Assembly: GCA_038062875.1 (NCBI GenBank)
Contig: JBBTWF010000005.1
Coordinates: 1-42,141, forward strand
Direction of reading: 5' to 3'
DNA from: Patescibacteria group bacterium
Lineage (GTDB): Bacteria > Patescibacteriota > Minisyncoccia > UBA6257 > UBA9933
Length of the DNA stretch: 42,141 nucleotides
The translations under genes and the position numbers were made by a program. The notes under the pieces were generated by a model. It searched no databases. It saw nothing but the letters and a program-made list of their open reading frames with translations, and was not told the origin of the DNA. Positions 21,405 through 36,748 of the stretch are shown here, piece by piece; the stretch's first letter is position 1, and each line of letters starts with the position of its first letter.

Positions 21405-21800
21405 ATGAAATCCCGACAAAAAAAATCAACCAATAAAATTTTAACTGGCGTATTTTGTGTTAGTTTAGTGATGGTTTTAAGTTTATCTTTCAGTAATGAA
21501 GTTTTAGCAGATACTGGCGGCGGTACTGGCAGTGTTCAACTTCAAAACCCCCTTTGCGGTGGCTCTCCGAACTGCACTTTCGCCAATATTCTTAAAACTA
21601 TTTCCAATTATTTGGTGACGCTTAGCGGAATTATAGTGGTGATCATGATTCTAATCGGCGCTTTCCAAATTATGACCGCCGGCGGGGACCCGGAAAAAGT
21701 CAAAACTGGCCGGCACACGATTTTATGGTCCGCCGTAGGATTTGCCATCGTCTTGTCCGCTTACGGAATTGTTGCTATAGTGGAGGAACTACTAAAATAA
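21405..21800 (+). CDS. Small secreted two-helix protein, paralog 2 (MTAGGDPEKVKTGR loop)
   Basis: It has a signal peptide, a Cys pair (PLCGGSPNC) and the same core as paralog 1. Confidence 0.55.
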   Translation: MKSRQKKSTNKILTGVFCVSLVMVLSLSFSNEVLADTGGGTGSVQLQNPLCGGSPNCTFANILKTISNYLVTLSGIIVVIMILIGAFQIMTAGGDPEKVKTGRHTILWSAVGFAIVLSAYGIVAIVEELLK

Positions 21801-21820
21801 TTTTCAATTTTCAAAGCATT

Positions 21821-22147
21821 ATGAATAAATTAACAAAAACCGCATCATTTTTAATTCTATCTGGTTTAATAACCTTGCTTATTGTGCCGATAATTTCTTA
21901 CGCGGCGGTTGAATCAATGAACGATGTTATTAGGGTGCTTAATAATATTGTTAGTTGGACTTATATTATTTTCTTTATTGTGGCCACTTTTTTCATATTG
22001 ATAGCGGCTTTTAATTTTTTAACAGCAAGAGAAAATCCTGAAAAAATTAAAACCGCTAAAGACCAATTACTTTACGCGGCTATCGCTATCGCTATCGCAT
22101 TAATGTCATCGGGAATTAAAGCGATAGTATTGGACATTTTAAGTTAA
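21821..22147 (+). CDS. Small secreted two-helix protein, paralog 3 (LTARENPEKIKTAKDQ loop)
   Basis: The ATG at 21821 (MNKLTKT...) is the preferred start. The longer track ORF overlaps gene 2. The family core is conserved and there are no Cys residues. Confidence 0.55.
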   Translation: MNKLTKTASFLILSGLITLLIVPIISYAAVESMNDVIRVLNNIVSWTYIIFFIVATFFILIAAFNFLTARENPEKIKTAKDQLLYAAIAIAIALMSSGIKAIVLDILS

Positions 22148-22212
22148 GATATTAAAATAATTAATATGATCATTTCCAAAGGTCGAAAGGATTAAATCAA
22201 GTGTTATATTTT

Positions 22213-22572
22213 ATGCAAAAATTAAAAACAAAAATTTCCGTTGGAGTTATGGCCGGTTTATCAACTTTATTAGGAAGCGCTTTGCTTGTTGTTGCGGGTC
22301 CGCCTCCAATCCCCAGTTCTCCGGTCACTTCAGTTACCGGCATTGTTGATGTAATAGACAATGTAGTCAGATGGGTTTATATTATTTTCTTTATTTTGGC
22401 TGTTCTTTTCATTATTTTCGCGGCATTCACTTATTTGACTGCCGGAGGCGATGAAGAAAAAGTCAAAAAAGCCAAAGACCAGATAATTTACGCGGCAGTC
22501 GCGATTGTTGTCGCTCTATTGGCGGTTGGATTTCAAACAATCATCGGAAACTTCTTAACAAGCGGTGGCTGA
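22213..22572 (+). CDS. Small secreted two-helix protein, paralog 4 (LTAGGDEEKVKKAKDQ loop)
   Basis: The ATG at 22213 is preferred over the GTG at 22201. It is the closest paralog of gene 3 (VRWVYIIFFILA...). Confidence 0.55.
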   Translation: MQKLKTKISVGVMAGLSTLLGSALLVVAGPPPIPSSPVTSVTGIVDVIDNVVRWVYIIFFILAVLFIIFAAFTYLTAGGDEEKVKKAKDQIIYAAVAIVVALLAVGFQTIIGNFLTSGG

Positions 22573-24601: not shown

Positions 24602-24684
24602 GCTCCCGTGGCGGAACTGGCATACGCGCATGGTTTAGAACCATGTCCCGTAAGGGTTAGAGGTTCAAATCCTCTCGGGAGCAC
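24602..24684 (+). tRNA. tRNA-Leu (anticodon TAG), with a long variable arm
   Basis: Manual fold: acceptor GCTCCCG/CGGGAGC, anticodon stem CATGG/CCATG, loop TTTAGAA, variable arm CCCGTAAGGG, T arm AGAGG-TTCAAAT-CCTCT. Confidence 0.85.
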
Positions 24685-24690
24685 AAAAAA

Positions 24691-25626
24691 TCATTTTCTT
24701 CTTCTGGCGTGAAAGGCGTGGTGGACTTCGCGAAGCCCCTTATTGGTAAGATGGGTATAAATTTGAGTGGTGGAAACATTGGCATGACCCAAAAGTTCTT
24801 GGACTGAACGGAGATCGGCTCCGCCGACCAAAAGATCTGTTGCGAATTGATGACGGAGCTGGTGCGGAGTAATTTTATCGGTAATGCCAGCTTTGCGAGC
24901 GTAAAAATTAACCAGTCGCTGGATTGTCCGTGGAATAATCCGACCGATTATTTTTGGCGAGCTTTTTCCGCCTGAGGCGGATCCGCCTTTGGCGGAAGAC
25001 AAACTTACAAAAAGCGCTTCGTCAGTGTCGGTTCTTTTTTCTAAATAATTTTTAATCGCTTTTTTGGCTCGTTCGGAAAGAAAAACCAGCCGCAATTTGT
25101 CTCCTTTCCCACGCACCGAAATTTCACCGCGTTCTAAATCAAGATAACGATTAAGCCCACAAAGTTCGGAAATTCGCAAACCAGTTGAAAAAAATGTTTC
25201 TAAAATCGCTTTGTCGCGCAAAGCGCGCAAATTATTACCGGCAGGCGCCTCAAATAATCTTTCTAAGTCCTTGTATTCAATAATCTCAATCTGCCGCGTA
25301 GATGTTTTCGGAAGTTCAATTTTATCCGGAGATAAAACATTATAATCCTGCTTAATTAAATATTTTAGAAAATTCCGCAAAGCAATCACGTAATACGACT
25401 GGGTAGTTTTTTTTAGAATTCCTCCGTCCGAGATTTTGGTTCGCGCTAAACGCAACCGAAAATCCCTAATTTTATCCATAGTAATGTCTTTTTCGGTTCT
25501 AATTTCGGCAAAATCAATAAAAACCCTAAGATACCGCTCGTAATTCTCGCTTGTTTTCGGGGAACGATTTTTTTCAATCTCTAAATAATCAAGATAATTT
25601 TTGAGAAGATTTTTAATGTCTGGCAT
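24691..25626 (-). CDS. xerC: Tyrosine recombinase, XerC/XerD family, with an in-frame Gly/Ser-rich repeat insertion
   Basis: The catalytic motifs RGKGDKLR, HQLRHQFAT and LGHANVSTTQIYTHL are present. The SSAKGGSASGGKSS segment is encoded by repeat B (24963..24993). Confidence 0.85.
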   Translation of the reverse strand: MPDIKNLLKNYLDYLEIEKNRSPKTSENYERYLRVFIDFAEIRTEKDITMDKIRDFRLRLARTKISDGGILKKTTQSYYVIALRNFLKYLIKQDYNVLSPDKIELPKTSTRQIEIIEYKDLERLFEAPAGNNLRALRDKAILETFFSTGLRISELCGLNRYLDLERGEISVRGKGDKLRLVFLSERAKKAIKNYLEKRTDTDEALFVSLSSAKGGSASGGKSSPKIIGRIIPRTIQRLVNFYARKAGITDKITPHQLRHQFATDLLVGGADLRSVQELLGHANVSTTQIYTHLTNKGLREVHHAFHARRRK

Positions 25627-26527: not shown

Positions 26528-28639
26528 ATGAATCTAAATAAACAACAATTCGCAACTGAAATCGCCGGCAAAAAAATAACGCTGGAGGTTTCGAAAATCG
26601 CCGGCCAAGCCAACGCGGCAGTATTAGGTCAATACGGAGACACAGTTGTTTTAGTAACAACTGTAATGGGAAAACAAAATAGAGATACTGATTATTTCCC
26701 TTTAACCGTTGATTATGAGGAAAAATTTTATGCGGCCGGTAAAATAATCGGCAGCCGATTTGTTCGGCGCGAAGGCCGTCCTTCAGAAGAAGCCATTCTT
26801 TCCGGTCGGCTCATTGACCGAGCTTTGCGGCCGCTTTTTGATCAGAGGATGCGCCGAGACGTCCAAATCGTTATTACTATCATTTCTTACGATGAAGAAA
26901 ACGACCCTGATTTTATTTCTCTTCTTACTGCTTCAGCCGCTTTAGCGATTTCAGAAATCCCGTGGAATGGTCCTGTTGCCGGCGTTAAAATCGTCCGAGC
27001 CTCTGATGGTGAAACTTTCATTAACCCCGAAAATTCCAAAATTAAAGAACTACAAACTAAATTCAGCGCTTTTGCCGCTGGTCTTGACAACGCAATCAAT
27101 ATGATTGAATTAGACGGAAACGAAACTACCGAAGATGAAGTAATTGAAAGTTTTGATTTGGCTCAAAAAGAAATCTCAAAACTGATTGATTTCCAAAAAG
27201 AAATCGTTAAAAAAATCGGGCAGCCGAAAGCGGAAGTCCTTTTAGCCGAACCGGATGAAAAAATTAAAAACAAAATTAAAGATTTTCTCAAAGATAAACT
27301 GAAAGACGCAATCTATCCGTCAGAAAAAACCGAACGCAAAAACAAACTTGATGAATTAAAACAATCTCTAAAAGAACATCTGGAACAAGAAGAAATGACC
27401 GAAGGAATTAAATTTATTGATGCAATACTCGAGGAAGAAATCGACAAATTAGTCCATAAAAATATTCTTGAGTCCGAAAAAAGGCCTGACGGCAGACGGC
27501 TTGACGAAGTACGCGAACTTCACGCTGAAGTTGGATTATTTAAACGGCTTCACGGCTCCGCTCTTTTTATCCGTGGCAATACCCAAGCGCTGGCAGTCAC
27601 TACTTTGGCCGCGCCAGGAGCTGAACAATTGATTGAGACGATGGAAACAACTGCTAAACGCCGATTTATGCTCCATTATAATTTTCCGCCGTATTCAACA
27701 GGCGAAATAAAACGGCTCGGCGGTCCTGGACGCAGAGAAATCGGCCACGGCGCTTTGGCGGATAAAGCCATCAGATCTCTTATCCCATCCCAGGAAGAAT
27801 TTCCTTACACTATTCGTGTAGTTTCGGAAATTTTATCTTCCAACGGCTCTTCTTCTATGGCAAGTGTTTGCGCTTCTTCATTGTCCTTAATGGATGCCGG
27901 AGTGCCGATTAAAAAACCAGTGGCTGGAATCGCGATGGGATTAATAATTGAAACTAAAACCCAAAACCTAAAACCTATAACCTATAAAATTTTAACCGAC
28001 ATCCAAGGGCCGGAAGACCATTACGGCGATATGGACTGTAAAGTCGCCGGCACTAAAGACGGCATTACTGCCATTCAAATGGACGTAAAAATCGACGGCG
28101 TTGCTCTTCCTATACTTAAAGAGGTCTTCCAACAAGCTAAAAAAGCCCGTTTGGAAATTTTGGAAGTGATAAATAAAACTATTGATAAACCAAGACCGCA
28201 AGTTTCTTCTTTTGCTCCGATTATTATGACTGTGGAAATTAATCCAGAGAGAATAGGCGAAATTATCGGGCCGGGCGGTAAAATGATTAAAAAAATCACC
28301 AAAGACACCGGCGTGGACGCGATTGATATTGAAGAAAGCGGACGAATTTTTGTGGCCTCTATTGATCCTGAAAAAGCTATGGCAGCGGTTAATTATATTA
28401 AATCGCTCACCCGCGAATTCCAAATCGGCGAACTCGTGGAAGGAGAAATAATAAAAATCCTCGACTTCGGAGCTATTGTTGATTTAGGCGCCGGCAAAGA
28501 CGGGATGATTCACGTTTCCGAACTTAAAAACGGATTCGTGGAAAAAGTGGAGGACGTGGTGAAAATTGGCGACCGCGTCAAAGCGAAAGTTATCCGTACT
28601 GAAAATGGAAAAATTGGGCTGTCTTTGAAAAATCTCTAA
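26528..28639 (+). CDS. pnp: Polyribonucleotide nucleotidyltransferase (PNPase)
   Basis: It has two RNase PH domains and KH + S1 C-terminal domains (GPGGKMIKKI, GELVEGEIIKILDFGAIVDLG), plus an in-frame repeat insertion at about 27958..27990. Confidence 0.96.
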   Translation: MNLNKQQFATEIAGKKITLEVSKIAGQANAAVLGQYGDTVVLVTTVMGKQNRDTDYFPLTVDYEEKFYAAGKIIGSRFVRREGRPSEEAILSGRLIDRALRPLFDQRMRRDVQIVITIISYDEENDPDFISLLTASAALAISEIPWNGPVAGVKIVRASDGETFINPENSKIKELQTKFSAFAAGLDNAINMIELDGNETTEDEVIESFDLAQKEISKLIDFQKEIVKKIGQPKAEVLLAEPDEKIKNKIKDFLKDKLKDAIYPSEKTERKNKLDELKQSLKEHLEQEEMTEGIKFIDAILEEEIDKLVHKNILESEKRPDGRRLDEVRELHAEVGLFKRLHGSALFIRGNTQALAVTTLAAPGAEQLIETMETTAKRRFMLHYNFPPYSTGEIKRLGGPGRREIGHGALADKAIRSLIPSQEEFPYTIRVVSEILSSNGSSSMASVCASSLSLMDAGVPIKKPVAGIAMGLIIETKTQNLKPITYKILTDIQGPEDHYGDMDCKVAGTKDGITAIQMDVKIDGVALPILKEVFQQAKKARLEILEVINKTIDKPRPQVSSFAPIIMTVEINPERIGEIIGPGGKMIKKITKDTGVDAIDIEESGRIFVASIDPEKAMAAVNYIKSLTREFQIGELVEGEIIKILDFGAIVDLGAGKDGMIHVSELKNGFVEKVEDVVKIGDRVKAKVIRTENGKIGLSLKNL

Positions 28640-28668
28640 TTTTATAATATTAAAAATAAAATTTAGAC

Positions 28669-29295
28669 GTGCTTGAACAATTAAATCAAATTTATCTACT
28701 TTTTAGCGGAAGCGTAATCGGCCTCTTAATTGAGTACAAGCTTTGGGCAATTTTTGGAGGAGCGATTTTTTTTGCCGAAAGCTTCATAATAACCGCCTCC
28801 GCCTTATCAGTAAAAGGATGGTGGTCTCCTATCGATGTATTTTGGTTAACACTGGCCGGAACGCTTATTTCTGATTTCTTTTGGTATCTGCTTGGCCAAT
28901 TTCTTTTAAAAATCAACTATCGATTAGGAGAAAAAGACCAGAGCAGAATGAAAAAGTTGGCTTTAGTTATTAACGCGGTGGCTGGGAAAAAGCTTTTTCC
29001 CGTGCTTTTATTTATGAAGTTTTCATATGGAACGCGATTTTTAATACTGCTTTATTTATCATTGCGTCGTGTGAAATTGAAAGATTTTCTGATTTTTGAT
29101 ACTATAAGCACTGTCATCTGGCTCTTAGTGCTAATCCCATTAGGATGGCTGGCAGGTAAGGGTATAAATTATTTTGGACTTTTCCAGAAAATTGAGTATC
29201 TTTTTTCGGCAATACTCGTTCTTATTTTGATATATAAAGGCGCCACATTTCATATACGGAAAAAAATTACAAAAAAACCTGCGCAAAATGAGTAA
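28669..29295 (+). CDS. Polytopic membrane protein, possibly DedA/VTT-like (GTG start); first gene of the candidate biosynthetic operon
   Basis: It has 4-5 TM helices and a G-rich loop pattern with weak DedA resemblance. It overlaps the next gene by 8 nt. Confidence 0.4.
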   Translation: MLEQLNQIYLLFSGSVIGLLIEYKLWAIFGGAIFFAESFIITASALSVKGWWSPIDVFWLTLAGTLISDFFWYLLGQFLLKINYRLGEKDQSRMKKLALVINAVAGKKLFPVLLFMKFSYGTRFLILLYLSLRRVKLKDFLIFDTISTVIWLLVLIPLGWLAGKGINYFGLFQKIEYLFSAILVLILIYKGATFHIRKKITKKPAQNE

Positions 29296-29959
29296 TATTA
29301 TTTTTTCGTTAGTAAAATCAGAAAAAGAATTAAACAGAGCTCTTAATCTGGCTTACTTAGAATACCGAAGAAAAAAATTCATTAAAGCGTCTAACGAAAA
29401 AATTTACAAAACCTCATTTAATACTCCATCAAAGTCAGTCACTTTCGTAGCTAAAAATAATAATAAAGTTATCGCCACCGCTTCTCTTATTATAGACTCG
29501 GAATCCGGTCTACCGATGGATTCGCTCTATAAAAAAGAATTGGATGATTTGCGGAAAAAAGGGAAAAAAATCTCCGAGATTTCGCAACTCGCCTTTGATA
29601 ATGAAACAACTAAATCTTCTTTTGAGGAAATTAAAACAATTAACTTGCTATTAACGCTTTTTAAACTAATGTTCCATTACTGCCTATATCGCGGCATTAA
29701 TAATATCTGTATTTGCGTCAATCCTCTCCACAAAATTTTCTACGAACATTTATTTTTTAAAGATCTGGGGAAAGGATTGAAAAAATATCCAGCAATGAAT
29801 GGAGCTCCGGCGATTGCCAAGTATCTCACTATAAATAAACAATTAAAAAAGATTGCCGCCGAAAAAAAACCAGCTGTTTATAAAATTTTTTATAAAAATA
29901 AACCGAATTATAAAATGTTCGGCGGAAAATCAAGGCTTACTTTTAAAATAAAAATATGA
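29288..29959 (+). CDS. GNAT-fold N-acyl amino acid synthase-like acyltransferase (FeeM/NasY-type, PEP-CTERM/exosortase-associated acyltransferase family)
   Basis: TASLIIDSESGLPMDSLYKKELDDLRKKGKKISEISQLAF matches the family core (RLIL..GLP.E..F...L...G..AEISRLAV). Confidence 0.55.
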   Translation: MSNIIFSLVKSEKELNRALNLAYLEYRRKKFIKASNEKIYKTSFNTPSKSVTFVAKNNNKVIATASLIIDSESGLPMDSLYKKELDDLRKKGKKISEISQLAFDNETTKSSFEEIKTINLLLTLFKLMFHYCLYRGINNICICVNPLHKIFYEHLFFKDLGKGLKKYPAMNGAPAIAKYLTINKQLKKIAAEKKPAVYKIFYKNKPNYKMFGGKSRLTFKIKI

Positions 29960-29972
29960 TATAATATTAAAT

Positions 29973-30440
29973 ATGGGATTATTAGAAATTATAAAACGCA
30001 ATATTTGGGTGTTGGAAGACGACATTCAAACGCCTTATCGCAAGATAGTAAGCTTGATATTGAAAACAATGGGGGTCTCCGCCGTAATTATAGGAATTTA
30101 TTTCTTCTTCCTGGCTTTTGAGACGCAAAACAAATATTTTGAATTACAAAACAAATATTTTGAATTACGGGATAATTATGAATTTATGCGTCAGAATAAT
30201 AATATAGGAGAAGAAACAATTTCTTCTATACGCTCCGCGGACCTCGCTTTATTACAATTAGAAACAGAACAAATATCTTACGAAATTACTCTTTTTTGTC
30301 TTTCGGGAATCGGCTGGCTTCTATTGGGCGTATTTATCTCCGGAACTTTATATATAAGATATATGTCTTTTGTTTTGCCGGATCGAATTTATCATCGTTG
30401 TTTTGCCACCGAAGAAGAAAAGAAAAAAATGCGCTCTTAA
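29973..30440 (+). CDS. Hypothetical 2-TM protein containing an exact in-frame 21-bp tandem duplication (QNKYFEL x2)
   Basis: ORF in the operon; the duplication lies at 30126..30167. Confidence 0.4.
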   Translation: MGLLEIIKRNIWVLEDDIQTPYRKIVSLILKTMGVSAVIIGIYFFFLAFETQNKYFELQNKYFELRDNYEFMRQNNNIGEETISSIRSADLALLQLETEQISYEITLFCLSGIGWLLLGVFISGTLYIRYMSFVLPDRIYHRCFATEEEKKKMRS

Positions 30441-30461
30441 AACATAAAATATCGTGTTTTT

Positions 30462-31337
30462 ATGCAATTTCAAGAAAATGAATTCTATAAACAAGCTTTT
30501 TCAAGAAATCTTGGGTTGCTAACAACCGAAGAACAGGAAAAGATAAGTAGAGCGAAAATCGCCATCGCTGGCCTTGGCGGCGTTGGTGGAATATATTTTT
30601 TAAACTTGGTAAGAATTGGCGTTAAAAATTTTAATATCGCCGATTTTGATGTTTTTGAATTGCCAAATATAAACCGACAGGTTGGCGCTGACATAAATTC
30701 ATTGGGAAAATCCAAAATTGACACGCTTGAGAAAATGGCCAAATCAATTAATCCATTTATTACCATTCAAAAATTTGGAAAAGGCGTTGACGAAAATAAC
30801 ATTGGTGAATTTCTAAAAAACGCGGATGTAGTATTGGACGGACTGGACTTTTTTAACATTAAAGACAGAATCGCTTTATTTAGAGAAGCGAAAAAGAAAA
30901 AAATTTACGCCATAACTTCCGCTCCTGTGGGTTTCGGCGCCTCGCTTTTAGTTTTTTCTCCCAAAGGAATGAGTTTTGAGGAATATTTTGACATTAAAAA
31001 TGAAGAAACCGATAATGAAAAATTATTCTCTTTCGCACTTGGATTAAGCCCGAGCTTGCTCCATAGAAAATATTTTAAACCATCGCTTATCGATTTTAGC
31101 AAAAAAAAAGCTCCTTCTTTGAGTTTAGCTACTCTTTTATGCGCCAATTTAACATCTTGCGAGGTTATAAAAATAATACTTGGGAAAAAGGTAAAACCAG
31201 CCCCATTTTGTTCGCAATTTGACCCATATCTTCAAAAATATAAAAAAATAAACTTAAGAAACGGAAATAGAAATTTTATTCAGCGTTTTAAAAAATGGAT
31301 TATCAAAAAAAAGCTTGCCAAGTCGGGGAATTTATAA
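30462..31337 (+). CDS. E1-like adenylyltransferase (ThiF/MoeB/HesA family)
   Basis: It contains the nucleotide-binding KIAIAGLGGVGG, then D.D....N.NRQ and a C-terminal Cys-containing region. Confidence 0.75.
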   Translation: MQFQENEFYKQAFSRNLGLLTTEEQEKISRAKIAIAGLGGVGGIYFLNLVRIGVKNFNIADFDVFELPNINRQVGADINSLGKSKIDTLEKMAKSINPFITIQKFGKGVDENNIGEFLKNADVVLDGLDFFNIKDRIALFREAKKKKIYAITSAPVGFGASLLVFSPKGMSFEEYFDIKNEETDNEKLFSFALGLSPSLLHRKYFKPSLIDFSKKKAPSLSLATLLCANLTSCEVIKIILGKKVKPAPFCSQFDPYLQKYKKINLRNGNRNFIQRFKKWIIKKKLAKSGNL

Positions 31338-31343
31338 ACAAAA

Positions 31344-32423
31344 ATGGAGCAAGATATTTTAAAAATAATAGAATATGGAATAATGGCGCCTTCAGTGGAT
31401 AATAACCAGCCCTGGTATTTTAAAACAGATAAAAAATCAATTTATGTGTACCTTGACGAAGATAGAAAAAAAACAGGAGAATTTCTGCATACTGAAAACG
31501 CTTTAGATTTAATCTGTTTAGGCGCTCTTTTGGAAAATATAAAAATCGCATCTTCCCACCTTGGATATCTGCCAGAAATCATCAACTTCCCCGATAAAAA
31601 ATACAAAAATCTAATTGCTCGCGTAAATCTTTCAATAAACAAGAAGAAAGCCAGTCATCCTTTTTATTTATTTATTCCTCAACGCGCAACCAATAGAACG
31701 CGTTACCAAAATTGCCGTATAAACGAAACAATAAAAAATACAACGCTTGATATCGCGAAACAAAACAACGCCAACCTTTATTGGGTTGACGATAGGGCTT
31801 CAATAAAAAAAATAGCCAACGCTGCCTCTCTTTTTGATTTTGTGTTATGGAATAATAATGAAAAAAGAAACGATTTGTTAAAATGGCTTCGTCTGGACGA
31901 AAAAGAAGCTTATTTAACGAAAGACGGTTTGTTTTTAGAAACCTTAGGATTGAATAAATTTAAAAAAATACTTTTTAATTTTTTCGCGAAAATATCCAGA
32001 ACCTCGATTCTCGCGCGTTGGATTATCGGAATTAATTCTTGTTTTCACCAACGCGGTCTGATTAAGGCCTCTTCAGCTGTTTTAATTCTGACTATGCCGA
32101 ACGCCTCCGATATTGATTATTTAAAAGGAGGACAAATTCTTCAAAATATTTGGCTTTATCTAACTTCTGAAAAAATCGCCTGCCAGCCGATAGCCGGAGC
32201 CCTTTATTTATTAATGTACGAGTTCTTTCCTGAAAAAATGGGGGAATTGCGGCCGTGGCACCGAAAAATAGCAAAAAAATGTTTTAGAGAATTTTCTCTA
32301 AATTCTAAAATTTCCGAAAATAACGCTTTAATTTGTCTATTAAGAATCGGTTGCGCAGAAATACCAAAAATAAAATCATTAAGACGCCCGATTAAAGAAG
32401 TGATAAGCCCCCTTAAAAAGTAA
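31344..32423 (+). CDS. Nitroreductase-superfamily protein, SagB/McbC-type (two-lobed) dehydrogenase-like
   Basis: The N-terminal APSVDNNQPWYF (nitroreductase FMN-binding region) and the roughly 360-aa length suggest a duplicated nitroreductase fold. Confidence 0.5.
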   Translation: MEQDILKIIEYGIMAPSVDNNQPWYFKTDKKSIYVYLDEDRKKTGEFLHTENALDLICLGALLENIKIASSHLGYLPEIINFPDKKYKNLIARVNLSINKKKASHPFYLFIPQRATNRTRYQNCRINETIKNTTLDIAKQNNANLYWVDDRASIKKIANAASLFDFVLWNNNEKRNDLLKWLRLDEKEAYLTKDGLFLETLGLNKFKKILFNFFAKISRTSILARWIIGINSCFHQRGLIKASSAVLILTMPNASDIDYLKGGQILQNIWLYLTSEKIACQPIAGALYLLMYEFFPEKMGELRPWHRKIAKKCFREFSLNSKISENNALICLLRIGCAEIPKIKSLRRPIKEVISPLKK

Positions 32424-32427
32424 AAAT

Positions 32428-33288
32428 TTATAATCTTAATCTTTTGATATCGTTTAATTTGCCGTCCATTAAAATAACTACTCTATCCGCCTGTTCGGCA
32501 AAAGAGGGCTCATGTGAAACAAGCACAATTGTTTTTTTGAATTTGACGTTAATTTCTCTTAAAAGCGAGATTAACAACTGGCCGTTTTTAAAATCAAGGT
32601 GGGCGGTTGGTTCGTCAGCCAAAATCAACAACGGGTCTTTGGCTAAAGCCCGAGCGATAGCAACCCTTTGCTGTTCCCCGCCGGAAAGTTCTTTCGGATA
32701 CCGCTTCATTTTATCTTTTAAACCAAGAACTTCTAAAATTTCTTTCGCTCTCTCTTTGGTTTTTCTGAATCCAACATTTTGAAGCCGCAAAGCGAAAGCG
32801 ACATTTTCAATAGCCGTAAAGTCCTCTAAAAGATTAAAAAATTGAAAAATAAATCCGATATTAAAAAGCCGCAATTGCGTCAACTGTCTATTTTTAGAAC
32901 CTTTAATGTCTTCGTTTTCAAATATAATTTCTCCGCCGTCTGGCTCATCAATCAAGCCGATTAAATTCAATAAAGTGCTTTTGCCGGAACCGGAATACCC
33001 AGTAATGGACAAAAACTCCCCCTTATAAACTTCCAAACTGATTCCATTTAACGCCGCGACTGTAATATTTTTTGACGGGCTATATCTCTTAAAAATATTA
33101 TTAATTCTAACAAGCGGAAGTTTTTGACTTTCTATTGAGACTATTTCGTGAAACGCATCATTTATTAACTCGTTGTGCCAACCAATGGAAATCAAATTGG
33201 TCTTAATTTGTTCGTTAGAAATTTTTAACGCCCGGCACTTAATTATGTAATCAATAAGTTCTTGGTTTATCATTTTAAATAGACCCAC
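32428..33288 (-). CDS. ABC transporter ATP-binding protein (MacB/LolD/FtsE-like) with an unusual N-terminal extension of about 57 aa
   Basis: It has Walker A GYSGSGKST, the signature LSGGEQQRVAIARAL and Walker B ILADEPT. Confidence 0.85.
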   Translation of the reverse strand: MGLFKMINQELIDYIIKCRALKISNEQIKTNLISIGWHNELINDAFHEIVSIESQKLPLVRINNIFKRYSPSKNITVAALNGISLEVYKGEFLSITGYSGSGKSTLLNLIGLIDEPDGGEIIFENEDIKGSKNRQLTQLRLFNIGFIFQFFNLLEDFTAIENVAFALRLQNVGFRKTKERAKEILEVLGLKDKMKRYPKELSGGEQQRVAIARALAKDPLLILADEPTAHLDFKNGQLLISLLREINVKFKKTIVLVSHEPSFAEQADRVVILMDGKLNDIKRLRL

Positions 33289-34471
33289 GCATTACATCGA
33301 CTATTTTTGTTTTTGAGGCAAGATAAGCTGGTACCGCGCTCCCAAGTAAAGTCGCCCCTAAATAAGCCCAAAAAGATATCCAAAAAAGATGATAATTAAT
33401 AACCGTTCTTAAATCCCCGATAAGTAAAACAATCGGATTGCCAGCAAAATACTGGTGAATTAGCACGAATATTAATCCGCCCAAAACAAACGATAAGGTG
33501 GAATAAATAAACGCCTCTAAAATATAGACGGTGATTACAAATTTATCACCTCCGCCCATTGATTTGATAATGCCGATTTGCCTTCTTCTTTGAATGGTGT
33601 GAATAAAAATCACCATTGCGATAATTATGAAAGTGACTGCCAGGAAAAAATTTATAACCATATTCATAACCAAAGAAAATCCCGAAAGTAAATCGTCAAT
33701 ATAACCAGCATCTTCTCGCCAAGTAGCCACATGAACATTTAAATTCTTTTCTTGAATTTCTTTCTTTGTCTGTTCAATTTTATCCAAATCTTTTAATTTT
33801 ATGACTATCTCGCTATTTTTTTGCGAATCATCGAGTTTTTCCAACGCTTCTTTATCTAAATAAACAACCCAATTTGGTAAAAATGTTTTAAAATCAGCGA
33901 TTCCCACTACCTTATAATCATAATTCGTTCCATCGGTGGCGACGATATTAATCGTTTCCCCAATTTTTATCCTATCTTTATCATAGGGATAACCAACTAA
34001 TGAGTCCGCAATAGTAAGGCCCAACACCGCCTCATTGTTTCGTGACGAAACAATATTTCTTCCTTGAACGATTTTATCTTCAAATCCCGTAACTTTATTT
34101 TCTTGTTTCGGCGAAAAACCAACCACTCGATAAGGACTATGCATCTTGCCTTTATAACTAGTGCCAACAGCCATTATGACGCTTCTGACATTAAAAGCTT
34201 CTATGTTGTCAATAGAATTTAATTCCTTGGAAATATTTTCAATATCAAAATCAGAAATGAATGTATTATTTTCTCCGGGGGTGATAATGATATGACCCGA
34301 AGAACCAATGGCGCCGTCAGTTAAGGCAGTTTTAAAACCCTCTAAAATTCCGGCTGTTGTGAACAGAGCCGCGAATAAAGCGGTTAAAGACAGAATTGTA
34401 AGAAAAAAATTGATTCCGCTCTTTGAGGTATCGCGCAAAGCCAACGATAAAAGAGCGAATAAACGGTTCAT
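33275..34471 (-). CDS. ABC transporter permease, FtsX/MacB type (N-terminal TM, large extracytoplasmic domain, 3 C-terminal TM helices)
   Basis: The topology and the C-terminal FtsX-like helices identify it. It overlaps the ATPase gene. Confidence 0.75.
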   Translation of the reverse strand: MNRLFALLSLALRDTSKSGINFFLTILSLTALFAALFTTAGILEGFKTALTDGAIGSSGHIIITPGENNTFISDFDIENISKELNSIDNIEAFNVRSVIMAVGTSYKGKMHSPYRVVGFSPKQENKVTGFEDKIVQGRNIVSSRNNEAVLGLTIADSLVGYPYDKDRIKIGETINIVATDGTNYDYKVVGIADFKTFLPNWVVYLDKEALEKLDDSQKNSEIVIKLKDLDKIEQTKKEIQEKNLNVHVATWREDAGYIDDLLSGFSLVMNMVINFFLAVTFIIIAMVIFIHTIQRRRQIGIIKSMGGGDKFVITVYILEAFIYSTLSFVLGGLIFVLIHQYFAGNPIVLLIGDLRTVINYHLFWISFWAYLGATLLGSAVPAYLASKTKIVDVMRGSI

Positions 34472-34710
34472 ATTTTATTGTTTTTTAAGTTAATTAACGC
34501 AATAATGTCTCCGATCGTCTTAATGCGCGTCAACTCCTTATAATCCAATTTGAGTCCGAATTTCCTTTCAAGGACTGGTATTAATTCGAAAATATGAAAA
34601 GAATCGTGGACTAAATCCTCAATTTTGGCGTCTAATGTGATTTTTTCTTCATCAATGCCGGATATTCCCGAAATAATCCTGATAAGCTTTTTATTAGTTT
34701 TATCTTCCAT
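34468..34710 (-). CDS. Acyl/peptidyl carrier protein-like (80 aa, DSF serine motif)
   Basis: DAKIEDLVHDSFHIFELI resembles the (D/E)xGxDSL carrier-protein attachment site. It is coupled to the PPTase and permease genes. Confidence 0.55.
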   Translation of the reverse strand: MEDKTNKKLIRIISGISGIDEEKITLDAKIEDLVHDSFHIFELIPVLERKFGLKLDYKELTRIKTIGDIIALINLKNNKI

Positions 34711-35416
34711 AAAAAGTACGTGGAATGTTAATTTGAGTTAATATAAATCTATTTAAAATAATCCTCCATTTTACTATCGCCGGTAATTCTCTATTTTTAT
34801 TATACAATTTAATCGGCTTTTTACGCAAATTGTCGAAATTAATATCTATCAATTTCGGAGAATATGACAATCCGCAACCAACCGCCTTTAAGTATGCTTC
34901 TTTTACACACCAAAACAATATTATTAATTTTCTTTTGTTTTCTTTGTTTTGTCGGGATATTATTTTTAATTCATTGTCGGTAAGAAATTTTTTTGAAAAT
35001 GCACGATTTACTCCTTTTATTTTTTCTATATCAATACCCACAACTCCTTTCTGACGAACATTAACAATGCTCCCGACGCCTATACCGCCACAATGACTAA
35101 TTGAGATATCCGTTTCCTTGATTTCTTTTAGAATTTTCGAATCGCATTTCTTAATAATTTTATAAAACGGCCTGCCCGATTTTTTATTTAAAATCTCTAT
35201 TTTGTTAAAATCAATTAATAAATAAAATTTCTTTAAAAAATAACTCCGAATCGCTTTTTTAACGGCCATCCTTCCGGAAAACCAATCTTTTTGTTTTTTC
35301 CACGAAGAAATATTTTTATAAATATGCACCTCTTTTTCCGAAAGAAATCCACAAAGACGGTCGTTATTAATCTTCTTAACCTTAAATAAATGAACGGCGG
35401 GCGCTGAATTTCTCAT
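34700..35416 (-). CDS. 4'-phosphopantetheinyl transferase (Sfp/EntD type)
   Basis: It contains GIDIE and FWCVKEAYLKAVGCG (the W..KEA.lKa.G.G motif). Confidence 0.7.
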   Translation of the reverse strand: MRNSAPAVHLFKVKKINNDRLCGFLSEKEVHIYKNISSWKKQKDWFSGRMAVKKAIRSYFLKKFYLLIDFNKIEILNKKSGRPFYKIIKKCDSKILKEIKETDISISHCGGIGVGSIVNVRQKGVVGIDIEKIKGVNRAFSKKFLTDNELKIISRQNKENKRKLIILFWCVKEAYLKAVGCGLSYSPKLIDINFDNLRKKPIKLYNKNRELPAIVKWRIILNRFILTQINIPRTFYGR

Positions 35417-35474
35417 TTCATATTTAAATCTATATTAAAATCGCGCCAAAATCAAACAGATAATATCGAATCCT

Positions 35475-35503
35475 TGACTTTTCTTGAAGTAAAATTGTAT
35501 AAT
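35475..35503 (+). promoter_or_regulatory. Promoter for nusA (TTGACT -N17- TATAAT)
   Basis: Read directly. It is followed by the leader hairpin aagtccgc-cgaaa-gcggactt at 35515..35535. Confidence 0.6.
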
Positions 35504-35545
35504 TTAACTATTGAAAGTCCGCCGAAAGCGGACTTTTATAAAATT

Positions 35546-36748
35546 ATGATGGACTTAAAAAATCTCAATCGGGCGGTGGAGCAGATTGCCGACGAAAAAG
35601 GCATTGAACCGAAGCAGATTATGAACGTAATCGAAGAGTCAATCGCCGCCGCTTATAAAAAAGAATACGGGAAAAAAGGAGAAATTATCAGGGCAAAACT
35701 GGATTTAAAAACCGGCGATTTGGAATTTAAAAAAATAAAAACTGTGGTTGACGAAAACACGGTGGAAATAGCGGAGGCAAGAGAAGATGACGAAAAATAT
35801 GAAAAAGAAAAAAAACCAATTTTTGCTAAATCCGCGGAAGATGAAGAAAAACTGCCGCGTTATAATCCCGACCGCCATATTTTAATTAAAGAAGCGAAAC
35901 AAATCAAAAAAGACGTTGAACTCGGCGAAGAATTGGAATTTCCCTTAGAAGAACACGACGAATTTGGAAGAATCGCGGCCCAGGCCGCCAAACAGGTAAT
36001 TCTTCAAAAAATAAGAGAGGCCGAAAGAGCGTCAATCCAAAAAGAATACATAAATAAAGAAGGAGAGATTATTAGCGGTGTTGTCCAGCGCGTTGAACGA
36101 GGCAATGTTTATATTGATTTAGGCAGGGCTGTCGGAATGATGTTTTACAATGAGGCCATTCCAGGCGAACATTATCGAATCGGCGAACGACTGCGTTTTT
36201 ACGTTTTAGCGCTTCAAGAAGAAACCTCCAGATTGCCGGGGATTATTCTTTCCCGTTCTCACCCAAAATTCGTCAGCAAACTTTTTGAAATGGAAGTGCC
36301 GGAAATTCAAGACGGCTCAGTGGAAATTAAATCAATTGCTCGGGAAGCCGGCAGTAGAACGAAAATCGCGGTTACATCAAAAATAGAAGGCGTTGACCCG
36401 GTCGGCTCTTGCGTTGGCCAAAGAGGAACTCGCGTAATGTCCGTAACTAATGAGCTCGGTGTTGAAAAAATTGACATCATTGAATGGTCGGAAGACCCTG
36501 GTAAATTTATCGCCGCCGCTCTTTCTCCATCAAAAGTAAAAGATGTGGAAATTATGCCGCGCAGGGGAGCTAAAGCATTTGTGCCAGAAGATCAATTAAG
36601 TTTAGCAATCGGCAAAGGCGGACAAAATGTCCGACTTGCGGCTAAACTAACAGGTTGGAAAATCGATGTCCGTTCTCAATCGCGGCCCGAAGAAACACAT
36701 GAAGGCGGGACGGCAGAGGTGGAAGTGGAAAAAACAAATACTGAATAA
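35546..36748 (+). CDS. nusA: Transcription termination/antitermination factor NusA
   Basis: It has N-terminal, S1 and two KH domains (GSRTKIAV, GVEKIDII, GKGGQNVRLA). The start was moved to the ATG at 35546 because the track ORF overlaps its own promoter. Confidence 0.93.
   Translation: MMDLKNLNRAVEQIADEKGIEPKQIMNVIEESIAAAYKKEYGKKGEIIRAKLDLKTGDLEFKKIKTVVDENTVEIAEAREDDEKYEKEKKPIFAKSAEDEEKLPRYNPDRHILIKEAKQIKKDVELGEELEFPLEEHDEFGRIAAQAAKQVILQKIREAERASIQKEYINKEGEIISGVVQRVERGNVYIDLGRAVGMMFYNEAIPGEHYRIGERLRFYVLALQEETSRLPGIILSRSHPKFVSKLFEMEVPEIQDGSVEIKSIAREAGSRTKIAVTSKIEGVDPVGSCVGQRGTRVMSVTNELGVEKIDIIEWSEDPGKFIAAALSPSKVKDVEIMPRRGAKAFVPEDQLSLAIGKGGQNVRLAAKLTGWKIDVRSQSRPEETHEGGTAEVEVEKTNTE

What the first reader, a model, noticed from the sequence alone, without database searches (positions are those of the whole stretch)
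28669..35416. Compact candidate acyl-metabolite biosynthesis and export locus: DedA-like, N-acyl-amino-acid-synthase-like, E1-like and SagB-like genes, convergent with PPTase, carrier protein and a MacB-type ABC exporter
The plus-strand genes form a tight operon with an 8-nt overlap and 14-, 22- and 7-nt gaps. They encode a DedA-like membrane protein, a FeeM/NasY-type N-acyl amino acid synthase-like GNAT (core LIIDSESGLPMDS...ISEISQLAF), a 2-TM protein, a ThiF-type E1 with an intact GLGGVGG nucleotide loop, and a roughly 360-aa nitroreductase/SagB-like protein. The convergent minus-strand operon has overlapping genes for an Sfp-type PPTase (GIDIE, W..KEAYLKAVG.G), an 80-aa carrier protein with a DSF serine, an FtsX/MacB permease and an ABC ATPase. 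Characterised NAS enzymes acylate amino acids using acyl-ACP donors, so an ACP, its activating PPTase and an exporter nearby form a coherent module. That they act together is my inference. The E1-like plus SagB-like pair recalls the cyclodehydratase/dehydrogenase pair of thiazole/oxazole RiPP systems, although no YcaO gene is present. Reduced, CPR-type genomes usually lack fatty-acid synthesis; here that is an expectation I have not checked. If it holds, a dedicated ACP/PPTase pair is itself unexpected.
Basis: partly seen in the sequence, partly recalled or inferred. Interest (0 to 1): 0.85.

Follow-up and report, generated by a model that had tools for sequence, protein, structure and literature searches.

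The report
Acyl-oxazolone lipid operon in a CPR bacterium
An ultrasmall Patescibacteria (CPR) genome carries the known three-enzyme set for making N-acyl-amino-acid oxazolone lipids, packaged with its own acyl carrier protein, the enzyme that activates it, and a lipid exporter; this matters because CPR bacteria are thought to lack ACP-based lipid chemistry.

Summary
All nine genes are real, at the stated coordinates, and every family call holds except "SagB-like". The FeeM-type N-acyl amino acid synthase, the ThiF-like enzyme and the roughly 360-aa nitroreductase are not a YcaO-less TOMM remnant. They are the signature trio of the characterised acyl-oxazolone pathway (OxzA/OxzB, TyzA/B/C, TrzA/S). 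The nitroreductase belongs to the Acg/TyzC flavin-dependent-oxidase subgroup. One NCBIfam family fuses all three domains in the window's gene order.

Among 160 loci encoding ThiF relatives, the nitroreductase is fused or nearby in about 59% and FeeM in about 54%. The ACP/PPTase pair accompanies only one ThiF clade. Its taxonomically labelled members are all Patescibacteria. In that clade the same families recur in shuffled orders, together with DedA, a conserved 2-TM protein and a MacB-type exporter. In one relative, all nine families plus an Aas-like acyltransferase lie in a single co-directional operon.

The verdict is a new CPR variant of a known pathway. How the ACP is loaded is unresolved: no ANL-type adenylase occurs in any related locus. 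FAS II absence could not be checked genome-wide.

The parts
28669..29295 (+). DedA/VTT-family membrane protein (208 aa). It is the first gene of the plus operon, overlaps FeeM by 8 nt, and is a candidate lipid flippase or scramblase for the product.
   Evidence: Pfam VTT_dom 3.2e-11, above the cut-off. A DedA orthologue lies immediately upstream of FeeM in L093 and L095 as well, and DedA genes occur in the L006 and L034 loci. The L095 orthologue is 42% identical.
29288..29959 (+). FeeM/NasY-type N-acyl amino acid synthase (223 aa), corresponding to OxzA/TyzA/TrzA.
   Evidence: Pfam FeeM 2.4e-33. PDB 2G0B FeeM 2.3e-18 over residues 40-182, with the LPMDS and E-x-x-Q-x-A motifs aligned. It maps to positions 35-204 of the 989-aa triple-fusion family PRK14852. 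FeeM homologues occur in 50 of 80 and 37 of 80 ThiF-relative loci.
29973..30440 (+). Conserved 2-TM protein (155 aa) found immediately upstream of ThiF. It belongs to no described family and is a candidate membrane anchor or partner of the cyclase. It is not a precursor peptide.
   Evidence: No Pfam or NCBIfam family. Homologues sit directly upstream of ThiF in L008, L090/L095 and L091, where it is fused behind a CBS domain. The alignment shows a conserved DDI..PY.KI N-terminus, two TM helices and a C-terminal LPDRIY.RCFA..EE motif, with a variable loop between the helices.
30462..31337 (+). ThiF-like ATP-dependent adenylase/cyclase (291 aa), corresponding to TyzB or the ThiF domain of OxzB/TrzS.
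   Evidence: Pfam ThiF 6.3e-42. NCBIfam PRK08223 scores 342.6 bits (cut-off 266), PRK14851 (ThiF-nitroreductase fusion family) 342 bits, and the Rv1355c family 4.6e-19. GLGGVGG, R72 and the D126/D129 adenylation motif are invariant in 30 relatives, and no cysteine is invariant. Identity to ThiF domains that are fused to the nitroreductase is 41-50%.
31344..32423 (+). Single-chain 'double' nitroreductase-fold flavoenzyme of the FDO (Acg/TyzC) subgroup (359 aa), the predicted desaturase.
   Evidence: NCBIfam: C-terminal half of the Rv1355c (TrzS) family 8.5e-46, PRK14851 2.8e-42, Acg-family FMN oxidoreductase 2.6e-39; no SagB hit. The AF2 model has pLDDT 81 and pTM 0.84. Its best PDB fold match is 2YMV, the M. 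smegmatis Acg homologue (E 2e-11, TM 0.67/0.73, full length). APSxxNxQPW and RxTNR motifs are invariant in homologues. There are 3910 relatives in the representative library, including ThiF-nitroreductase fusions.
32428..33288 (-). ABC ATPase of the MacB/LolD/DevA type (286 aa; gene callers start it at 33273, giving 281 aa), with a roughly 55-aa N-terminal extension.
   Evidence: ABC_tran 2.7e-33. NCBIfam LolD 4e-66, DevA 2.9e-56, MacB 3.7e-52. Orthologues of 52-58% identity occur in CPR-clade loci L005, L092, L094 and L095.
33275..34471 (-). MacB-type permease (398 aa): MacB periplasmic core domain plus FtsX.
   Evidence: MacB_PCD 4.4e-19 and FtsX 3e-15. Orthologues score 1e-62 to 1e-100 (36-45% identity, full length) in CPR-clade loci L005, L008, L090/95, L092 and L094. 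Generic MacB neighbours elsewhere score only 1e-4 to 1e-20.
34468..34710 (-). Stand-alone carrier protein (80 aa) with a DSF serine. It is the predicted acyl donor scaffold for the FeeM-type synthase.
   Evidence: PP-binding 4.9e-8. It scores below all NCBIfam AcpP cut-offs (48.3 against 71; 42.5 against 70.45). The D-S motif is invariant across 8 cluster ACPs; the window copy has pI 6.7 against 4.05 for E. coli AcpP. Among 160 ThiF-relative loci, an ACP was detected in 9: eight in the CPR clade, all of which also carry the PPTase, plus L098, which was not placed in a tree.
34700..35416 (-). Sfp/HetI-type 4'-phosphopantetheinyl transferase (238 aa) that would convert the adjacent apo-ACP to holo-ACP.
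   Evidence: ACPS 1.5e-20. NCBIfam PPTase domain 67 bits (cut-off 45), HetI 4.5e-13 over residues 17-204. It overlaps the ACP gene by 11 nt. The PPTase-ACP gene pair is adjacent in every CPR-clade locus that is long enough to show it.

Best explanation

Proposed steps:
1. The Sfp-type PPTase converts the 80-aa carrier protein to its holo form.
2. A scavenged fatty acid is carried as acyl-S-ACP. The loading enzyme is not identified.
3. The FeeM-type synthase transfers the acyl group to the amino group of an amino acid.
4. The ThiF-like enzyme adenylates the carboxylate with ATP, and the amide oxygen closes a 5(4H)-oxazolone ring. The conserved 2-TM protein probably holds ThiF at the membrane.
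5. The Acg/TyzC-type flavoenzyme desaturates C-alpha/C-beta, giving a 4-ylidene-oxazolone or, after ring opening, an N-acyl-dehydroamino acid.
6. DedA and the MacB-type ABC pump move the amphiphile across or out of the membrane.

Status of each claim:
- Shown here: the gene families and their conserved linkage.
- Taken from characterised homologues: the chemistry of steps 3-5.
- Inferred: ACP as the acyl donor, the membrane role of the 2-TM protein, and export.
For: (1) Trio identity. FeeM scores 2.4e-33 in Pfam and 2e-18 against PDB 2G0B. ThiF is above the PRK08223 cut-off and scores 342 bits on the ThiF-nitroreductase family PRK14851. The nitroreductase matches the C-terminal half of the Rv1355c (= TrzS) family at 8.5e-46. 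All three window proteins map in order to consecutive segments of the single 989-aa family PRK14852.

(2) The nitroreductase model best matches the Acg homologue 2YMV over its full length.

(3) Published biochemistry. OxzA/OxzB make tyrazolones (10.1101/2020.06.11.147165). TyzA/B/C and TrzA/S show N-acylation, ATP-dependent ThiF cyclisation and FDO desaturation. The authors state that ThiF adjacent or fused to an FDO and next to an acyltransferase 'strongly implies' oxazolone biosynthesis (PMC10404671; PMC12856293).

(4) Linkage statistics. In 80 genome loci with ThiF relatives, the nitroreductase is fused in 23, within 2 kb in 24 and farther away in 4; FeeM is present in 50. In 80 metagenome loci, the nitroreductase is present in 44 and FeeM in 37.

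(5) ACP/PPTase/exporter linkage. ACP+PPTase-linked ThiFs form one clade in an NJ tree. The families recur in different orders and strands across loci with 45-63% ThiF identity and GC from 0.30 to 0.60. L095 has TM2-ThiF-NTR-AT-PPT-ACP-FtsX-ABC-DedA-FeeM all co-directional, with orthologues of all nine window proteins at 35-62% identity.

(6) The window is the only clade member without the PlsC/Aas-type acyltransferase, yet it keeps ACP and PPTase. That leaves FeeM, or possibly ThiF, as the in-cluster client of the ACP. FeeM itself is described as ACP-dependent (PMC10404671).

(7) Patescibacteria are reported to lack fatty-acid and lipid synthesis (PMC11665869; PMC10633639). No fab gene lies in the window.
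Against: - No acyl-ACP synthetase or any ANL/AMP-binding enzyme is encoded in the window or in any of 11 CPR-clade loci, so ACP loading is unexplained.
- The characterised OxzA, TyzA and TrzA were assayed with acyl-CoA, not acyl-ACP.
- FDO desaturation is O2-dependent in the characterised systems, and many CPR bacteria are anaerobes.
- Three CPR-clade loci with full 10-kb flanks (L006, L014, L034) have FeeM, ThiF, ACP and PPTase but no nitroreductase. The clade's conserved core may therefore make something other than an unsaturated oxazolone.
- The amino-acid substrate is unknown.
- In stieleriacine producers with the same trio, no oxazolone was detected (PMC12479983).
Confidence: 0.6

Rival explanations
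1. Lipid-salvage reading. The CPR-clade operon is mainly a membrane-lipid scavenging and re-acylation machine, analogous to Aas/LplT or chlamydial AasC/LPLAT. A lipase-like hydrolase frees fatty acids. The ThiF-type adenylase, rather than an ANL enzyme, activates a carboxylate and loads it on the holo-ACP thiol. An Aas-like acyltransferase re-acylates lysolipids, and FeeM makes N-acyl-amino-acid membrane lipids. DedA and MacB move lipids. The window would be a reduced version that has lost the acyltransferase.
For: - All other CPR-clade loci carry a PlsC-family acyltransferase next to PPTase-ACP. Its best NCBIfam hit is acyl-[ACP]--phospholipid O-acyltransferase (Aas), 6e-19.
- Several also carry a Palm_thioest/lipase-like hydrolase.
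- L090/L095 has a bona fide cyclopropane-fatty-acyl-phospholipid synthase, 615 bits.
- No ANL adenylase is present in any of these loci, so ThiF is the only ATP-dependent carboxylate activator.
- Outside CPR, the nearest FeeM homologues sit beside AMP-binding--ACP--acyltransferase fusions.
- ThiF persists in CPR loci that lack the nitroreductase.
- CPR membranes are lysolipid-rich, and no ACP-using enzymes were found in the CPR genomes screened in that study (PMC7242380).
Against: - The window has no acyltransferase, hydrolase or MFP, but it does have the complete FeeM/ThiF/FDO trio.
- The ThiF is 41-50% identical to ThiF domains fused to the FDO, and those act on N-acyl amino acids.
- No ThiF-family enzyme is known to load a carrier protein (review PMC12596934).
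- Non-CPR loci have both an ANL-ACP-AT fusion and ThiF (L004), so ThiF is not simply a substitute for the ANL domain.
Confidence: 0.2
2. Chance neighbours. The minus-strand ACP/PPTase and the Lol/MacB-like ABC system are housekeeping genes that merely abut an oxazolone operon.
For: - The two operons are convergent, not co-transcribed.
- The ABC components resemble LolCDE/FtsEX-type housekeeping systems.
- In relatives, ACP/PPTase sits with general phospholipid enzymes.
Against: - The same exporter orthologues (E 1e-62 to 1e-100) and the ACP/PPTase pair stay with ThiF and FeeM through many rearrangements. They are co-directional with them in L095, L092, L005 and L034.
- ACP+PPTase linkage is restricted to one ThiF clade.
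Confidence: 0.06
3. RiPP/TOMM-like system. The E1-like protein and a SagB-like dehydrogenase modify a ribosomal peptide.
For: ThiF-like enzymes and nitroreductase-fold dehydrogenases do occur in RiPP pathways (PMC12596934).
Against: - No SagB (TIGR03605) or Ocin-ThiF hit.
- The fold matches Acg, not McbC/SagB.
- No YcaO anywhere in the 42 kb.
- Intergenic gaps are 4-57 nt, leaving no room for a precursor gene.
- The only small ORF is a conserved membrane protein.
Confidence: 0.02
4. Anti-phage E1/E2-type (CBASS Cap2-like or 6A-MBL) conjugation system.
For: The ThiF gives weak PADLOC E1-E2 hits (best 2.9e-14, 50 bits).
Against: These are generic Rossmann-domain matches, far below the 342-bit PRK08223/PRK14851 scores. 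No E2, JAB, cyclase or effector is present, and no other locus protein hits PADLOC specifically.
Confidence: 0.01

Closest known systems
TyzA/TyzB/TyzC of Mycobacterium tuberculosis (Rv2336-Rv2338c), acyl-tyrazolone pathway (PMC10404671)
   Same: It has three separate genes: an N-acyl amino acid synthase with the FeeM fold, a stand-alone roughly 300-aa ThiF-like cyclase, and a stand-alone roughly 360-aa monomeric FDO-type nitroreductase adjacent to the ThiF gene. A lipid transporter (MmpL9) lies next door.
   Different: - TyzA was assayed with acyl-CoA, and there is no in-cluster ACP or PPTase.
- The host has full fatty-acid synthesis.
- There is no 2-TM partner, DedA or MacB-type pump.
- The window proteins are distant. 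The nitroreductase falls below Pfam cut-offs and is recognised only by the NCBIfam Rv1355c, PRK14851 and Acg models.
OxzA/OxzB (Pseudoalteromonas rubra) and TrzA/TrzS (Rv1356c/Rv1355c): oxazolone synthetases with a fused ThiF-nitroreductase
   Same: The domain set is the same, and the order (acyltransferase, then ThiF, then nitroreductase) is the same. The window ThiF and nitroreductase match the two halves of the Rv1355c-family and PRK14851 models.
   Different: In the window, ThiF and the nitroreductase are separate genes. The window also has an inserted 2-TM gene and additional ACP, PPTase, DedA and ABC genes. The known producers are Pseudomonadota, Actinomycetota and Planctomycetota (PMC12479983), not Patescibacteria.
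FeeM and the fee cluster (soil eDNA long-chain N-acyl-tyrosine synthase, PDB 2G0B)
   Same: FeeM is the closest solved structure to the window synthase (2e-18). It is described as ACP-dependent, matching an ACP-fed reading.
   Different: FeeM was matched here only as a single protein (PDB 2G0B), and its genomic context was not examined. From memory, and untested here, the fee cluster lacks the ThiF/FDO pair and carries other tailoring genes.
Aas/LplT lysophospholipid re-acylation (E. coli) and chlamydial AasC/LPLAT (PMC11416262, PMC5693948)
   Same: Relatives of the window locus combine an Aas-like acyltransferase with ACP and membrane lipid movers, in organisms that must scavenge lipids.
   Different: The window itself lacks the acyltransferase. 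No ANL acyl-ACP synthetase domain is present in any CPR locus. LplT (an MFS protein) is replaced by DedA and MacB-type proteins.
DevBCA glycolipid exporter with HetI PPTase (cyanobacterial heterocyst glycolipids) and YknXYZ/MacAB
   Same: These are MacB-architecture permeases with a separate ATPase that export a lipidic product. The window ATPase hits DevA at 2.9e-56 and the PPTase hits HetI at 4.5e-13. Relatives have a YknX/DevB-like adaptor.
   Different: The window has no membrane-fusion adaptor. The comparison is a functional analogy only and was not tested.

Membership tests
Oxazolone-synthetase gene cluster (OxzAB / TyzACB / TrzAS) | FeeM-fold N-acyl amino acid synthase gene in the cluster | tested here: met
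   Pfam FeeM 2.4e-33. PDB 2G0B 2.3e-18. N-terminal segment of PRK14852 8e-22.
Oxazolone-synthetase gene cluster (OxzAB / TyzACB / TrzAS) | ThiF-like enzyme of the TyzB/OxzB/TrzS sequence cluster with an intact adenylation motif (Asp equivalent to TrzS D217) | tested here: inconclusive
   Strong hits to PRK08223 (above cut-off), PRK14851 and the Rv1355c family, and 41-50% identity to nitroreductase-fused ThiF domains. GxGxxG, R72 and D126/D129 are invariant. However, no direct alignment to OxzB, TyzB or TrzS was possible, and the CPR sequences form their own clade.
Oxazolone-synthetase gene cluster (OxzAB / TyzACB / TrzAS) | FDO-subgroup (Acg/TyzC-like) nitroreductase fused or adjacent to the ThiF gene | tested here: met
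   It lies 6 nt downstream of ThiF. NCBIfam: Rv1355c C-terminal half 8.5e-46, Acg family 2.6e-39. Best fold match 2YMV. APSxxNxQPW and RxTNR motifs are conserved.
Oxazolone-synthetase gene cluster (OxzAB / TyzACB / TrzAS) | Production of an N-acyl oxazolone (ATP-dependent cyclisation, O2-dependent desaturation) | not testable with these tools
   Needs expression plus LC-MS, or enzyme assays.
TOMM / thiazole-oxazole RiPP system (SagBCD-type) | YcaO cyclodehydratase | tested here: not met
   No YcaO domain appears among the Pfam annotations of all called genes of the window.
TOMM / thiazole-oxazole RiPP system (SagBCD-type) | SagB-type dehydrogenase (TIGR03605) and a precursor-peptide gene | tested here: not met
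   No SagB model hit at E<=0.1. The fold matches Acg. Intergenic gaps of 4-57 nt leave no room for a precursor gene, and the 155-aa ORF is a conserved 2-TM protein.
Housekeeping FAS II AcpP/AcpS pair | ACP scoring as AcpP; AcpS-type (about 120 aa) PPTase; fab genes in the genome | tested here: inconclusive
   The ACP is below every AcpP cut-off (48.3 against 71). The PPTase is 238 aa and Sfp/HetI-like. No fab genes lie in the 42 kb. The rest of the genome could not be searched.
MacB-type ABC exporter | Permease with MacB periplasmic core domain plus FtsX C-terminal domain; cognate ABC ATPase; membrane-fusion adaptor | tested here: met
   MacB_PCD 4.4e-19, FtsX 3e-15 and ABC_tran 2.7e-33. The adaptor is absent from the window but present in relatives L005, L006, L034 and L092.
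OlsB/OlsA-type aminolipid synthesis | N-acyltransferase paired with a PlsC-family O-acyltransferase | tested here: not met
   There is no PF01553 homologue anywhere in the window. The feature is met in all other CPR-clade loci, so it stays relevant to the clade but not to this locus.

The most novel reading that the evidence does not exclude
The CPR-clade operon, of which the window is a trimmed copy, is an ACP-dependent lipid-scavenging and remodelling system. In it an E1/ThiF-type adenylase, working with the conserved 2-TM partner, replaces the ANL acyl-ACP synthetase: it loads a fatty acyl or N-acyl-aminoacyl group onto the carrier-protein thiol, either directly from the adenylate or via ring-opening of the reactive oxazolone. 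FeeM and an Aas-like acyltransferase then use that thioester to build membrane or host-directed lipids. This would be the first E1-like loading of a phosphopantetheinyl carrier, and the first described route by which Patescibacteria handle acyl chains.
Probability: 0.12. Interest if true: 0.85.

Novelty: new variant of a known kind. Interest (0 to 1): 0.55.

Why it matters
1. It would extend the acyl-oxazolone / N-acyl-dehydroamino-acid pathway beyond the three phyla where it is known (PMC12479983). The new hosts would be Patescibacteria, organisms that live attached to other cells and whose small-molecule repertoire is almost unknown. No paper in the searchable library links the two.

2. Reviews state that CPR bacteria lack lipid synthesis and that lipid uptake mechanisms have not been identified (PMC11665869). 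One study found no enzymes that make or need ACP in the CPR genomes it screened (PMC7242380). A conserved CPR operon with an ACP, its PPTase, ACP-type acyltransferases and lipid movers gives that open question a concrete, testable gene set.

3. The cluster-specific 2-TM partner of ThiF, and the absence of any ANL loader, point to unexplained biochemistry.

4. N-acyl amino acids and oxazolones act as signals or antimicrobials in other bacteria, so the product could mediate episymbiont-host interaction.

Tried and rejected
- Promoter and terminator consensus scans over 28300-35700 gave no excess over shuffles (26 found against 27 expected; 3 against 7) and are uninformative.
- Rfam at gathering thresholds found only four tRNAs in the window.
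- PADLOC gave only generic E1 and ABC matches, so a defence system was rejected.
- The SagB/TOMM reading was rejected.
- The word-indexed protein search found very few relatives of FeeM (3) and of the nitroreductase (4). The nearest FeeM homologues (38-40% identity) lie in a different context: an AMP-binding-ACP-acyltransferase fusion plus PilZ, with no FDO.
- The afdb50 fold library was unavailable, so the model could not be compared directly with the TyzC or OxzB AlphaFold entries.
- A search for a PlsC-type acyltransferase, alpha/beta-hydrolase, HlyD adaptor or ANL adenylase in the window found none.
- A relaxed (E<=10) HMM search for a hidden nitroreductase in L006, L014 and L034 found none.
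- A low ACP pI as evidence of specialisation was dropped. Only the window copy is near-neutral; relatives have pI 4.5-5.1.
- The Tn-seq paper on a cultured Saccharibacterium does not mention ThiF, ACP or PPTase.

Full report
**Observation**

Plus strand:

| Coordinates | Size | Gene |
|---|---|---|
| 28669-29295 | 208 aa | DedA/VTT |
| 29288-29959 | 223 aa | FeeM-type synthase |
| 29973-30440 | 155 aa | 2-TM protein |
| 30462-31337 | 291 aa | ThiF |
| 31344-32423 | 359 aa | nitroreductase fold |

Minus strand:

| Coordinates | Gene |
|---|---|
| 32428-33288 | ABC ATPase |
| 33275-34471 | MacB_PCD+FtsX permease |
| 34468-34710 | 80-aa carrier protein |
| 34700-35416 | 238-aa PPTase |

- The DedA/FeeM overlap is 8 nt.
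- The minus-strand genes overlap by 4 and 11 nt.
- The two operons converge with 4 nt between their stops.
- Gene callers on public assemblies find the same genes, and the locus occurs in the same order on 16 contigs from several samples.
- The source is annotated as a Patescibacteria-group MAG (GCA_964356485.1).
- The locus sits between rpsO-NYN-pnp and nusA. Its G+C is 0.31-0.37, against 0.40-0.45 on both sides.

**Family assignments**

Pfam and NCBIfam support every call except "SagB-like".
- FeeM: PF21926 2.4e-33, and PDB 2G0B 2.3e-18 with the LPMDS and E..Q.A motifs aligned.
- ThiF: PF00899 6e-42. It scores above the curated cut-off of NCBIfam PRK08223 (342.6 against 266).
- Carrier protein: PP-binding 5e-8, but below every AcpP cut-off.
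- PPTase: ACPS 1.5e-20, with Sfp/HetI-like length.
- Permease: MacB_PCD 4e-19 plus FtsX 3e-15.
- ATPase: LolD/DevA/MacB-like.

The 359-aa protein is only marginal in Pfam. In NCBIfam it matches three models and has no SagB hit:
- the C-terminal half of the Rv1355c family (8.5e-46);
- the ThiF-nitroreductase family PRK14851 (2.8e-42);
- the Acg family of FMN oxidoreductases (2.6e-39).

An AlphaFold model built on five homologues (pLDDT 81, pTM 0.84) has as its best solved neighbour, over its full length, the M. smegmatis Acg homologue 2YMV (E 2e-11, TM 0.67/0.73). All other hits are half-length classical nitroreductases. It is therefore a single-chain "double" nitroreductase of the flavin-dependent-oxidase (FDO) subgroup.

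**What the core is**

The three window proteins map, in gene order, to consecutive segments of one 989-aa NCBIfam family, PRK14852: FeeM to positions 35-204, ThiF to 311-586, and the nitroreductase to 623-797.

The literature identifies this trio.
- OxzA (N-acyltransferase) plus OxzB (a ThiF-nitroreductase didomain) make tyrazolones and phenazolones (bioRxiv 10.1101/2020.06.11.147165).
- M. tuberculosis TyzA/TyzB/TyzC are the unfused equivalent (PMC10404671).
- TrzA/TrzS (Rv1356c/Rv1355c) make tryptazolones. ATP-dependent ThiF cyclisation precedes O2-dependent FDO desaturation (PMC12856293).
- The same genes are implicated in N-acyl-dehydrotyrosines in Planctomycetota (PMC12479983).

The RiPP reading fails on every defining feature:
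- There is no YcaO anywhere in the window.
- There is no SagB-type dehydrogenase.
- There is no room for a precursor gene.
- The ORF at 29973-30440 is a conserved membrane protein.

**Neighbourhood conservation**

A scan of species-representative genomes with a ThiF alignment returned 80 loci. Local phmmer/HMM searches with the nine window proteins gave the following counts:

| Feature | Loci out of 80 |
|---|---|
| Nitroreductase fused to ThiF | 23 |
| Nitroreductase within 2 kb | 24 |
| Nitroreductase farther away | 4 |
| FeeM present | 50 (44 within 5 kb, 3 fused) |
| ABC / FtsX present | 17 / 20 |
| ACP and PPTase present | 5 |

The five ACP/PPTase loci are L006 and L034 (Saccharibacteria), L008 (Moraniibacteria), L014 (Paceibacterota) and L005 (an unclassified "bacterium").

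A metagenome scan gave similar proportions: nitroreductase in 44 of 80 and FeeM in 37 of 80. It added L093, L094 and L095. Exact-protein look-ups added L090, L091 and L092.

In a neighbour-joining tree of the ThiF domains, all ACP- or acyltransferase-linked sequences form a single clade. That clade is separate from the proteobacterial, desulfobacterial and planctomycete ThiF(-nitroreductase) clades. L093-L095 were fetched after the tree was built and are assigned to the clade by gene content and by 52-62% ThiF identity.

Within this clade, ThiF identity to the window is 45-63% and G+C ranges from 0.30 to 0.60. Gene order and strand are repeatedly shuffled, yet the same families stay together.

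The clearest case is L095, which is 97% identical to L090 where they overlap. It has Cfa - DedA - PyrD-like - 2-TM - ThiF - nitroreductase - acyltransferase - PPTase - ACP - FtsX - ABC - DedA - FeeM. All are on one strand with overlapping or near-abutting junctions. It holds orthologues of all nine window proteins at 35-62% identity and near-full coverage.

The exporter orthologues in the clade score 1e-62 to 1e-100. Generic MacB neighbours elsewhere score 1e-4 to 1e-20.

**New details**

(i) The 155-aa 2-TM protein is a conserved partner placed directly upstream of ThiF in the window, L008, L090/L095 and L091, where it is fused behind a CBS domain. It has conserved N- and C-terminal motifs and a variable loop.

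(ii) DedA lies directly upstream of FeeM in the window, L093 and L095.

(iii) Every other clade member has a roughly 200-aa PlsC-family acyltransferase next to PPTase-ACP. Its best NCBIfam match is the Aas-type acyl-[ACP]--phospholipid O-acyltransferase. Several also have a lipase/Palm_thioest-like hydrolase and a YknX/HlyD adaptor. The window has none of these.

(iv) No ANL/AMP-binding enzyme is present in the window or in any of the 11 clade loci.

(v) L006, L014 and L034 lack the nitroreductase even at E<=10.

**Mechanism**

The best-supported reading (about 0.6) has six steps:
1. The PPTase makes holo-ACP.
2. A scavenged acyl chain is carried on the ACP.
3. [quoted passage not shown]
4. 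ThiF adenylates and cyclises it to an oxazolone.
5. The FDO desaturates it.
6. DedA and the MacB pump relocate the amphiphile.

Steps 3-5 rest on characterised homologues. ACP use rests on three points:
- FeeM's described ACP dependence.
- The clade-specific linkage of ACP and PPTase with ThiF and FeeM.
- The window retains ACP and PPTase although the only other in-cluster ACP client, the acyltransferase, is missing.

The weak points are also three:
- The ACP loader is unidentified.
- The model enzymes OxzA, TyzA and TrzA were assayed with acyl-CoA.
- Known FDOs depend on O2.

The main rival (about 0.2) reads the clade's operon as a lipid-salvage and re-acylation system (Aas/LplT-like, compare PMC11416262 and PMC5693948), with ThiF as the carboxylate activator feeding the ACP. 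That would answer why no ANL enzyme is present. It would also fit CPR biology: lysolipid-rich membranes and no ACP-using enzymes found previously (PMC7242380). However, no ThiF enzyme is known to load a carrier protein (PMC12596934), and the window itself has the complete oxazolone trio.

**Novelty and score**

The core chemistry is already known. What is new is the lineage and the architecture.
- Lineage: Patescibacteria. No paper in the library links them to oxazolones.
- Architecture: a dedicated ACP plus Sfp-type PPTase, a 2-TM ThiF partner, DedA and a MacB-type exporter, which in relatives are joined by phospholipid-remodelling genes.

That is a new variant of a known kind, with real relevance to the open question of how CPR bacteria handle lipids (PMC11665869; PMC10633639). 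Interest is 0.55.

Noticed in passing
window 12133-12207 (-): A tRNA-Ile with anticodon TAT (UAU) (ARAGORN; Rfam tRNA 73.5 bits). This would decode AUA without lysidine modification, which is uncommon in bacteria. It also overlaps the 5' end of ORF 11606-12205 (dCMP deaminase), so that ORF's true start must be further downstream.
   Followed up: no
window 29000-36000 against the flanks: G+C drops to 0.31-0.37 across exactly the nine-gene locus, against 0.40-0.45 in the flanking pnp and nusA/H+-PPase genes. The locus interrupts an rpsO-pnp / nusA housekeeping neighbourhood. This may reflect lateral acquisition or a mobile cassette.
   Followed up: partly
L090 4786-7760; L095 86-2679; L005 18225-19346: In relatives, a bona fide cyclopropane-fatty-acyl-phospholipid synthase (NCBIfam 615 bits) and a quinone-type dihydroorotate-dehydrogenase-like flavoenzyme lie in the same operon, directly upstream of 2-TM-ThiF. 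A PyrD-like gene also neighbours FeeM in L005. A DHODH-like alpha,beta-dehydrogenase in organisms said to lack nucleotide synthesis could be a second, O2-independent desaturase.
   Followed up: partly
window 30120-30190, inside the 155-aa ORF: The variable loop of the 2-TM protein carries a window-specific internal repeat (FELQNKYFELQNKYFELRDNYEF) that is absent from its homologues.
   Followed up: no
window 20951-22572 (+): Four tandem T4SS_pilin genes, followed by a Band_7 protein (Pfam). This is typical of the Patescibacteria type IV secretion/pilus apparatus.
   Followed up: no
window 24602-25626: A Xer-type tyrosine recombinase (24691-25626, minus strand) lies immediately after tRNA-Leu(TAG) at 24602-24684. 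This could be either an integration hotspot or ordinary XerC/D.
   Followed up: no
window 1060-1731 (-), 6590-6934 (-), 10019-10624 (-): Three other genes of note: an AbiEii toxin-family ORF, a prokaryotic diacylglycerol kinase, and a second DedA/VTT gene. The last two are further lipid-handling genes in a genome expected to lack lipid synthesis.
   Followed up: no
L001 6972-10819; L004 7056-13597: The closest non-CPR FeeM homologues (38-40% identity) sit beside an AMP-binding--PP-binding--PlsC-acyltransferase tri-domain protein, a PilZ protein and DUF1302. In L004 a ThiF gene is also present, but no nitroreductase. This looks like a different, apparently undescribed FeeM context.
   Followed up: partly
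L018 (contig labelled Nanoarchaeota): A ThiF relative (49% identity) with DedA and two alpha/beta-hydrolase genes lies on a contig binned as a DPANN archaeon. This is either mis-binning or cross-domain spread among ultrasmall symbionts.
   Followed up: no
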